Below, piece after piece: positions 43,518 through 43,667 of a stretch of DNA of 64,000 nucleotides (positions are counted from its first letter, which is position 1; each line of letters opens with the position of its first letter). Both the position numbers and the translations under genes were made by a program. The stretch lies in NCBI RefSeq assembly GCF_003334355.1, contig NZ_QOWP01000019.1; one strand, 5' to 3'. Source of the stretch: Escherichia coli. GTDB taxonomy: Bacteria > Pseudomonadota > Gammaproteobacteria > Enterobacterales > Enterobacteriaceae. The notes under the pieces are model-generated. The model worked only from the letters and a program-made list of their open reading frames with translations, did no database searches and was not told the DNA's origin.

Positions 43518-43545
43518 TTGCATGAAAACGCGAGCGGAGTATAGT
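43518..43545 (+). promoter_or_regulatory. Candidate sigma70 promoter for the tRNA-fMet gene
   Basis: ttgcat (-35) and tatagt (-10) with 16-bp spacing, A-rich tract upstream, about 13 bp before the mature tRNA 5' end. Confidence 0.6.
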
Positions 43546-43558
43546 GCGCATCCACGGA

Positions 43559-43635
43559 CGCGGGGTGGAGCAGCCTGGTAGCTCGTCGGGCTCATAACCC
43601 GAAGGTCGTCGGTTCAAATCCGGCCCCCGCAACCA
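43559..43635 (+). tRNA. metZ: Initiator tRNA-fMet (anticodon CAU)
   Basis: 77 nt CGCGGGGTGGAGCAGCCTGGTAGCTCGTCGGGCTCATAACCCGAAGGTCGTCGGTTCAAATCCGGCCCCCGCAACCA; 3' CCA encoded; three consecutive G-C pairs in the anticodon stem. Confidence 0.97.
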
Positions 43636-43643
43636 ATTATTGA

Positions 43644-43667
43644 ACACCCTAACGGGTGTTTTTTTGT
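43644..43667 (+). terminator. Intrinsic terminator after tRNA-fMet
   Basis: acaccc-taac-gggtgt followed by T7. Confidence 0.85.

What the first reader, a model, noticed from the sequence alone, without database searches (positions are those of the whole stretch)
43518..43667. Single initiator tRNA-fMet gene where K-12 is recalled to carry three tandem copies
Only one 77-nt tRNA-fMet gene lies between mltA and amiC, with its own promoter-like hexamers and terminator. From memory, the reference K-12 locus has three tandem copies (metZ-metW-metV) and other lineages have fewer. So this is either a strain with a reduced copy number, a recombinational collapse of the tandem array, or an assembly collapse of identical repeats.
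Basis: partly seen in the sequence, partly recalled or inferred. Interest (0 to 1): 0.45.

Follow-up and report, generated by a model that had tools for sequence, protein, structure and literature searches.

The report
One-copy initiator tRNA locus (metZWV)
This E. coli draft contig shows one initiator tRNA-fMet gene where nearly all E. coli, including its closest relatives, have three tandem copies; this rare but already recorded state is either an assembly under-count or a recent deletion, and the sequence alone cannot tell which.

Summary
One 77-nt tRNA-fMet gene (43559-43635, +) lies between mltA and amiC. It has the metZWV promoter hexamers and terminator and is identical to K-12 metZ/metW/metV. 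The window equals the three-copy locus minus exactly 220 bp, with no scar.

Among 5,426 complete E. coli genomes:
- 5,195 have at least 2 copies.
- 116 have exactly 2 copies.
- 109 (2.0%) have this same one-copy form.

The one-copy form is scattered across lineages and clusters by submission batch. It sometimes co-occurs with collapse of unrelated tRNA arrays, which shows that some of these records are assembly artefacts. However, an array of matched architecture, glyVXY, is collapsed seven times less often. Heritable contractions of tRNA arrays also exist.

The window is bases 1-64000 of the draft contig QOWP01000019.1. Its nearest complete relative (PSS-12) and a draft relative both carry three copies.

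My estimate is about 0.55 for an assembly under-count and about 0.40 for a genuine recent deletion. Raw reads would settle it. The finding is ordinary and of low interest.

The parts
43518..43545 (+). metZWV promoter: -35 TTGCAT (43518-43523), 16-nt spacer, -10 TATAGT (43540-43545), followed by the GC-rich discriminator GCGC. An A-run lies just upstream (43509-43516).
   Evidence: Sequence read. It is 100% identical to the K-12 MG1655 metZWV upstream region. The metZWV promoter mutations described in PMC3017606 (G to A just upstream of the -10 box; T to C within it) fit this -10 box. The generic scan did not flag it.
43559..43635 (+). Single tRNA-fMet1 gene (initiator tRNA, metZ/metW/metV type, G46).
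   Evidence: ARAGORN and Rfam RF00005 at 61.4 bits. Identical to all three K-12 copies. It has the C1xA72 mismatch, A11:U24, G29-31:C39-41, anticodon CAT, G46 and an encoded CCA end.
43557..43639 (+). The 83-nt stretch within which the junction of the missing 220 bp (two 110-bp units) must lie. It cannot be placed more precisely because this stretch is identical in the first and third copies of the three-copy array.
   Evidence: BLAST of the window against PSS-12 gives two HSPs that overlap at 43557-43639, with an offset difference of exactly 220. K-12 with two units removed is found verbatim in the window.
43642..43668 (+). Intrinsic terminator of the tRNA operon: an 8-bp stem, a 4-nt loop and a T run. 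It is the same as the trailer after K-12 metV.
   Evidence: Terminator scan; RNA fold -11.1 kcal/mol, z = -3.1; identical to the K-12 trailer.
42253..43350 (-). mltA (murein transglycosylase A), the left flanking gene.
   Evidence: ORF list. The protein is annotated as WP_000678646.1 in PSS-12 and K-12.
43709..44962 (-). amiC (N-acetylmuramoyl-L-alanine amidase), the right flanking gene.
   Evidence: ORF list. A 417-aa gene is called in the source contig and annotated as WP_000016907.1 in relatives.

Best explanation
The feature is the metZWV initiator-tRNA operon of E. coli (promoter, tRNA-fMet1 gene, terminator) written with one gene instead of three. It lacks exactly two 110-bp repeat units and has no scar. 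I think the most likely cause is an assembly under-count. The window comes from a draft contig. The identical 77-83-nt repeats let an assembler take the shortest path, leader to tRNA to trailer, and skip the two 33-nt spacers. The strain itself would then carry three copies, as its relatives do. Shown: the anatomy, the exact 220-bp difference, the draft origin of the window, three copies in relatives, and the existence of such collapses in public assemblies. Inferred: that this particular contig is one of those collapses.
For: - The window is bases 1-64000 of QOWP01000019.1 (GCA_003334355.1), an 84,834-bp WGS contig that begins inside an IS421/IS186 end. This is typical of a short-read draft.
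- The nearest complete genome, PSS-12, differs by 14 SNPs in about 63.5 kb outside the CRISPR array. Apart from an IS1 in fucP it shows no indels, and it has three copies.
- A draft relative, JAKZAW010000013.1, has a 578-bp amiC-mltA gap, which corresponds to three copies. The ST361-type complete genomes also show three-copy spacing.
- Among 5,426 complete genomes the one-copy form occurs in 109. These are scattered across unrelated backgrounds and concentrated in submission batches: WP-ESBL 10, GF 8, CP0756xx 6, CP0672xx-3xx 6, TUM 5.
- The same batches yield both one- and two-copy forms.
- Assemblies of single clonal families disagree. K-12 assemblies show 1, 2 or 3 copies. Among B-strain assemblies only AS19 has one. 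Among the O157:H7 assemblies listed only Xuzhou21 has one. The O104:H4 trio shows 1, 1 and 2.
- Of the 15 genomes with a collapsed glyVXY array, 5 are also one-copy at metZWV, against 0.3 expected. OV2 is collapsed at metZWV, glyVXY and leuQPV. Assembly collapse of tandem tRNA arrays is therefore demonstrably present in public records.
Against: - glyVXY has the same architecture (3 x 76 nt, 35-36-nt spacers) but is collapsed in only 15 genomes against 109 for metZWV. The big batches (WP, GF, CP0756xx, CP0672xx) show no glyVXY collapse. Generic collapse therefore cannot explain most one-copy records.
- The contig runs straight through a 77-nt sequence that probably also occurs at metY in this non-K-12 strain (inferred; metY is not in the window). 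The assembler therefore had some information spanning the repeat. If three copies exist, no read would support a leader-tRNA-trailer join.
- The look-up tool reports this same contig in two samples. Both submitter assemblies of the clone (OWD and RCQ protein series) have recB and csdA on one contig.
- Other short-read drafts of the lineage resolve the metZWV and gly arrays.
Confidence: 0.55

Rival explanations
1. The deletion is genuine and recent in this clone. Unequal recombination or replication slippage between the identical metZ and metV repeats (83 nt of identity, 220 bp apart) removed two units. The cell is left with two initiator tRNA genes (this one plus metY) instead of four, and so with roughly half the tRNA-fMet gene dosage.
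For: - The sequence is exactly the product expected from recombination between copies 1 and 3.
- metZWV is contracted seven times more often than the matched glyVXY array (109 against 15), so a locus-specific cause exists.
- Heritable contractions of tandem tRNA arrays are real. The one-copy leuQPV form appears in record after record of O157:H7, which fill most of the 60 rows listed out of 425 genomes. Two-copy metZWV occurs in five O6:H16 ETEC genomes (one labelled only as strain F5656C1), two O145:H28 genomes and IAI39.
- DHB4 has three copies and C3026, from the same submission series, has one.
- The clone carries private SNPs (RecB S822, CsdA M63, RlmM Q112), and both of its assemblies that cross the locus appear to share the same contig.
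- The biology allows it. Deleting all of metZWV is viable though cold-sensitive, and tRNA-fMet level follows gene copy number (PMC3017606). [quoted passage not shown]
Against: - No clade-wide one-copy metZWV group was seen. Genomes sharing one flank haplotype split into 11 one-copy and at least 49 multi-copy.
- The strong clustering of one-copy records by submission batch is hard to explain biologically.
- All close relatives of the window have three copies.
- The source is a draft assembly, and the two samples sharing the contig may come from one pipeline.
Confidence: 0.4
2. The sequenced culture was mixed: three-copy cells with a sizeable one-copy subpopulation, and the assembler reported the shorter allele.
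For: Tandem repeats of this size are recombination-prone (established knowledge). One-, two- and three-copy forms appear in different assemblies of the same laboratory strains.
Against: There is no direct evidence. Single-colony purification normally removes rare variants. The hypothesis cannot be tested without reads.
Confidence: 0.03
3. One copy is the normal, inherited state of this lineage, that is, ordinary strain variation with no recent event.
For: Two-copy metZWV lineages exist.
Against: PSS-12 (14 SNPs in 63.5 kb) and the draft JAKZAW010000013.1 have three copies. So do all next-nearest complete genomes whose flank coordinates I could compare.
Confidence: 0.02

Closest known systems
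E. coli K-12 metZ-metW-metV operon (tRNA-fMet1 genes)
   Same: Same position between mltA and amiC. The upstream region with promoter hexamers, the 77-nt tRNA and the terminator/trailer are all identical.
   Different: One gene instead of three. Both 33-nt spacers are absent and the locus is 220 bp shorter.
One-copy and two-copy metZWV records in complete E. coli genomes
   Same: 109 complete genomes carry the identical leader-tRNA-trailer arrangement, almost all at 100% identity over 137 nt. 116 carry two copies.
   Different: None of them belongs to the window's own lineage. The window is a draft contig rather than a finished genome.
Assembly collapse of tandem tRNA arrays (for example glyVXY in MC1061, OV2, O104:H4 2011C-3493, TUM14664 and PapRG-04-4)
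   Same: Three identical genes of about 77 nt separated by spacers of about 35 nt are reduced to a scarless single copy. Collapse co-occurs at unrelated arrays in the same assemblies.
   Different: I could not inspect other arrays of the window's own assembly, so co-collapse is untested for it.
Natural contraction of the leuQPV array in the O157:H7 lineage
   Same: A three-gene tandem tRNA array reduced to one gene, with the original flanks retained.
   Different: That state appears in record after record of one lineage (O157:H7 fills most of the 60 rows listed out of 425), so it looks inherited. One-copy metZWV is sporadic, with no such clade seen.
metY (tRNA-fMet2 gene in the metY-nusA-infB operon)
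   Same: It encodes the same initiator tRNA. It is reported identical to metZWV in non-K-12 strains and differs at position 46 in K-12 (bioRxiv 10.64898/2026.04.16.719103).
   Different: It is a different locus and is not in this window. It would be the only other initiator tRNA gene if the one-copy state is real.

Membership tests
Bacterial initiator tRNA (tRNA-fMet) | CAU anticodon on a tRNA fold | tested here: met
   ARAGORN tRNA-Met(cat); Rfam tRNA 61.4 bits.
Bacterial initiator tRNA (tRNA-fMet) | C1 x A72 mismatch at the top of the acceptor stem | tested here: met
   Position 1 is C and position 72 is A, while 2:71 is G:C.
Bacterial initiator tRNA (tRNA-fMet) | Three consecutive G:C pairs in the anticodon stem (29-31:39-41), and A11:U24 | tested here: met
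   GGG and CCC at those positions, and A11:T24. The 3GC feature is described in PMC3017606.
Bacterial initiator tRNA (tRNA-fMet) | Formylation by Fmt and use in initiation | not testable with these tools
   Inferred only from 100% identity to K-12 metZ/W/V.
metZWV operon | Location between mltA and amiC with the metZWV promoter, leader and terminator | tested here: met
   Flanks and regulatory sequences are identical to K-12.
metZWV operon | tRNA-fMet1 isoacceptor (G46) | tested here: met
   Position 46 is G.
metZWV operon | Three tandem genes with a 110-bp period | tested here: not met
   One gene only. The locus is 220 bp shorter than in PSS-12 and K-12.
Assembly collapse of a tandem repeat | Excess read depth over the repeat, and reads containing the missing spacers | not testable with these tools
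   No reads are available. Candidate runs of the clone found in Logan: ERR4578542, SRR25039422-4, SRR8529067, SRR8528976, SRR3823860.
Assembly collapse of a tandem repeat | Other tandem arrays collapsed in the same assembly | not tested
   I tried to fetch the glyVXY locus of GCA_003334355.1 through a lineage-specific Nnr allele. The tool showed other assemblies only.
Genuine recombinational deletion | The state is shared by independent isolates of the same clone | tested here: inconclusive
   The contig is reported in 2 samples. The OWD and RCQ assemblies both cross the locus, while the HAH and HAM assemblies break between csdA and recB. Whether the samples and pipelines are independent is unknown.

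The most novel reading that the evidence does not exclude
metZWV could be a genuine contraction hot spot. About 4% of complete E. coli genomes carry one or two copies, seven times the rate seen at the matched glyVXY array. This could reflect recurrent independent deletions that are tolerated or favoured because lower initiator-tRNA dosage helps under nutrient limitation. The window clone would then be a natural isolate living with half the usual initiator tRNA gene number.
Probability: 0.3. Interest if true: 0.35.

Novelty: already known. Interest (0 to 1): 0.13.

Why it matters
If the one-copy state is real, the strain has two instead of four initiator tRNA genes. Experiments link that dosage to growth rate, cold sensitivity, fidelity of start-site selection and fitness in poor media (PMC3017606, PMC9981150). 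It would then be a natural example of a genotype so far studied only in engineered strains.

If it is an artefact, the lesson is practical. Copy number at this locus is unreliable in public assemblies. About 4% of 'complete' E. coli genomes under-count it, clustered by submission batch. tRNA gene counts taken from assemblies should therefore not be used as biology without read support. Either way the locus itself is textbook.

Tried and rejected
- The generic sigma-70 scan found no promoter. I rejected this as evidence of absence, because the sequence is identical to the characterised K-12 metZWV promoter and the -35 hexamer matches only 3 of 6 positions.
- I first counted copy classes from the '>=80% coverage' figure of a 901-nt query. 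That figure mixes one- and two-copy genomes. I replaced it with junction-specific short queries and E-value cut-offs.
- 122 genomes fit neither the 'at least 2 copies' class nor the exact one-copy form. The one I inspected (ST648, CP008697) has an N exactly at the tRNA start, which is an assembly break. I did not pursue the rest.
- The Logan contig of the same sequence ends 30 nt inside the tRNA. This is the expected k=31 break and says nothing about copy number.
- I tried to infer the assembler's k from the 145-nt run into IS421 at the contig start. This was inconclusive.
- The leuQPV control is dominated by a real O157:H7 lineage trait, so it gives no clean collapse rate. My query was also one C short (146 nt), which cost one gap only.
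- I tried to fetch the glyVXY locus of the window's own assembly. The look-up hides similar neighbourhoods, so the assembly was never shown.
- Samhita et al. 2014 and Nilsson et al. 2006 are not held, so they are cited only through papers that cite them.
- Searches for 'QOWP' and for literature on Unicycler tandem-repeat collapse gave nothing useful.

Full report
**What is there**

ARAGORN finds a single tRNA in the whole 64-kb window: tRNA-Met(CAT) at 43559-43635 on the + strand. Rfam's tRNA model scores it at 61.4 bits. It lies between mltA (42253-43350, -) and amiC (43709-44962, -), and argA follows.

The 77-nt sequence carries every hallmark of a bacterial initiator tRNA:
- a C1xA72 mismatch
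- A11:U24
- G29-31:C39-41
- anticodon CAU
- G46, which marks the tRNA-fMet1 isoacceptor
- an encoded CCA end

It is identical to each of the three K-12 copies.

Upstream lie TTGCAT (43518-43523), a 16-nt spacer, TATAGT (43540-43545) and a GC-rich discriminator. This whole stretch is identical to the K-12 metZWV upstream region. It fits the promoter mutations mapped in PMC3017606. The generic promoter scan missed it because the -35 hexamer matches only 3 of 6 consensus positions. Downstream is a hairpin with a T run at 43642-43668, folding at -11.1 kcal/mol with z = -3.1.

K-12 MG1655 has three tandem tRNA-Met genes here, with a 110-bp period and two slightly different 33-nt spacers. The window equals that locus with two units removed. 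K-12 with copies 2 and 3 deleted in silico occurs verbatim in the window.

Against the closest complete genome, the two BLAST segments overlap by 83 nt (43557-43639) and their offsets differ by exactly 220 bp. There is no scar. The junction cannot be placed more finely, because those 83 nt are identical in the first and third copies.

**How common the state is**

I used junction-specific queries against 5,426 complete E. coli genomes.

| Class | Genomes | Call |
|---|---|---|
| At least one tRNA-spacer-tRNA junction (2 or more copies) | 5,195 | 24 |
| Exactly two copies | 116 | 51 |
| Exact one-copy leader-tRNA-trailer form | 109 (2.0%) | 26, 36 |
| Neither class | 122 | derived (24, 26) |

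The one- and two-copy counts sum to 225. This agrees with the 226 genomes that covered a longer query. One of the 122 unclassified genomes has an N exactly at the tRNA start, which is an assembly break. Junction counts imply that only about 36 extra junctions exist beyond the three-copy state. Expansions are therefore much rarer than contractions.

**Where the window comes from**

Three proteins in the window are rare alleles. Looking them up shows that the window is bases 1-64000 of QOWP01000019.1 (GCA_003334355.1), an 84,834-bp WGS contig. The contig begins 145 nt inside the end of an IS421/IS186-family element that sits in a CRISPR array. This is how short-read drafts usually break.

The nearest complete genome is PSS-12. 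Outside the CRISPR spacers it differs from the window in only three ways:
- 14 SNPs in about 63.5 kb
- an IS1 in fucP (present in PSS-12)
- the 220 bp at the tRNA array

PSS-12 has three copies. A draft relative with the PSS-12 RecB allele, JAKZAW010000013.1, has a 578-bp amiC-mltA gap, which corresponds to three copies. The next-nearest complete genomes (ST361 type) also show three-copy spacing. One copy is therefore not the lineage's normal state.

**Evidence that such records can be artefacts**

- *Scattered distribution.* One-copy records occur in unrelated backgrounds and inside clonal families whose other members have three copies:
  - K-12 assemblies show one copy (J53, ME8067, C3026, MG1655p, MC1061, OV2), two (DH5a, C600, MT102) or three.
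  - Among the many B-strain assemblies only AS19 has one.
  - Among the O157:H7 assemblies listed only Xuzhou21 has one.
- *No clade.* Genomes sharing one right-flank haplotype split into 11 one-copy and at least 49 multi-copy.
- *Batch clustering.* About 69 of the roughly 95 one-copy records I could list fall into groups from one accession series:
  - WP-ESBL 10
  - GF 8
  - CP0756xx 6
  - CP0672xx-3xx 6
  - TUM 5
  - Pap/GF3-3 5
  - STK/STS 4

  The same series often contain two-copy records as well.
- *Co-collapse.* A collapsed form of glyVXY, an unrelated three-gene array, occurs in 15 genomes. Five of these are also one-copy at metZWV, against 0.3 expected. OV2 is collapsed at metZWV, glyVXY and leuQPV. 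Those records are very probably pipeline artefacts.

**Evidence that contraction can be real**

- *Matched control.* glyVXY has the same architecture (3 x 76 nt, 35-36-nt spacers) but is collapsed seven times less often (15 against 109). The large batches show no glyVXY collapse at all. Most metZWV contractions therefore have a locus-specific cause. I can offer only an untested idea for a locus-specific artefact: the Dcm site CCTGG inside tRNA-fMet may disturb nanopore consensus and polishing.
- *Heritable contractions exist.* The one-copy leuQPV form is found in 425 genomes, and O157:H7 records, apparently a whole lineage, fill most of the 60 rows listed. Two-copy metZWV is shared by five O6:H16 ETEC genomes (one labelled only as strain F5656C1), two O145:H28 genomes and IAI39.
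- *The window's contig.* It runs through a 77-nt sequence that in non-K-12 strains is reported to be identical at metY. The assembler therefore had some information spanning the repeat.
- *A second sample.* The look-up tool reports the same contig in two samples. Both submitter assemblies of the clone keep recB and csdA on one contig. The two third-party assemblies break between them.

**Biology if real**

tRNA-fMet level follows gene copy number. Deleting all of metZWV is viable but causes slow growth, cold sensitivity and relaxed initiator selection (PMC3017606; PMC11480407). [quoted passage not shown] A one-copy strain would have two initiator tRNA genes instead of four.

**Verdict**

Its list of alternatives is narrowed to two that the sequence cannot separate. 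I put about 0.55 on an assembly under-count in this draft and about 0.40 on a genuine recent deletion in this clone. A mixed culture or a lineage-wide one-copy state takes the small remainder. The gene, the operon and this kind of copy-number difference are all already known. The identical arrangement exists in 109 public complete genomes. Interest is low. The most useful by-product is a caution: copy number at this locus is unreliable in about 4% of 'complete' E. coli assemblies.

Noticed in passing
window 1-148: The contig starts 145-148 nt inside the end of an IS421/IS186-family element. Its terminal inverted repeat is CATAAGCGCTAACTTAAGGGTTGAAC. PSS-12 has the same IS at the same site, with 1 mismatch.
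   Followed up: partly
window 184-586: A type I-E CRISPR array with at least 7 repeats of CGGTTTATCCCCGCTGGCGCGGGGAACTC at a 61-bp period. At least one spacer (about 397-428) differs from PSS-12, and the first roughly 300 nt align only out of register.
   Followed up: partly
window 42089-42131 (-): An Rfam hit to ES036 (CssrF) sRNA at 46.5 bits in the tcdA-mltA intergenic region. That intergenic region is 162 nt shorter in an unrelated draft (L011, GCA_038071515.1).
   Followed up: no
window 30407-31723 (+): fucP is intact in the window. In the closest complete relative, PSS-12, it is split by an IS1 insertion.
   Followed up: partly
window 42253-43779 (-): The mechanical ORF list gives a 508-aa ORF that extends mltA upstream straight through the tRNA gene. 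This comes from taking the first TTG after a stop. The real mltA start is at 43350.
   Followed up: yes
L023 13600-14019 (PSS-12 glyVXY locus); also L024, L026, L027: In the window's lineage the tRNA-Gly array has three annotated genes, but two of them are 157 nt apart, so the orn-yjeV gap is 863 nt against 742 in K-12. This suggests an extra, unannotated or degenerate unit.
   Followed up: no
L003 1958-1960 (ST648, NZ_CP008697.1): A 'complete' genome has an N exactly at the start of the tRNA-fMet array, followed by unrelated sequence (a phosphoglycerate dehydrogenase gene and kpsF-like genes). This is an assembly join at the same repeat.
   Followed up: partly
E. coli genome collection: Some complete genomes have up to 6 tRNA-spacer-tRNA junctions at metZWV, which implies about 7 copies. 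This could be a real amplification of initiator tRNA genes or a mis-assembly. I did not identify the records.
   Followed up: no
E. coli genome collection: SW4848 (CP107284) has two copies. TSW4848-W1 (CP110859), whose source field names SW4848 and whose chromosome is smaller (4.46 Mb against 5.00 Mb), has one. This looks like a possible parent-derivative pair differing in metZWV copy number.
   Followed up: no
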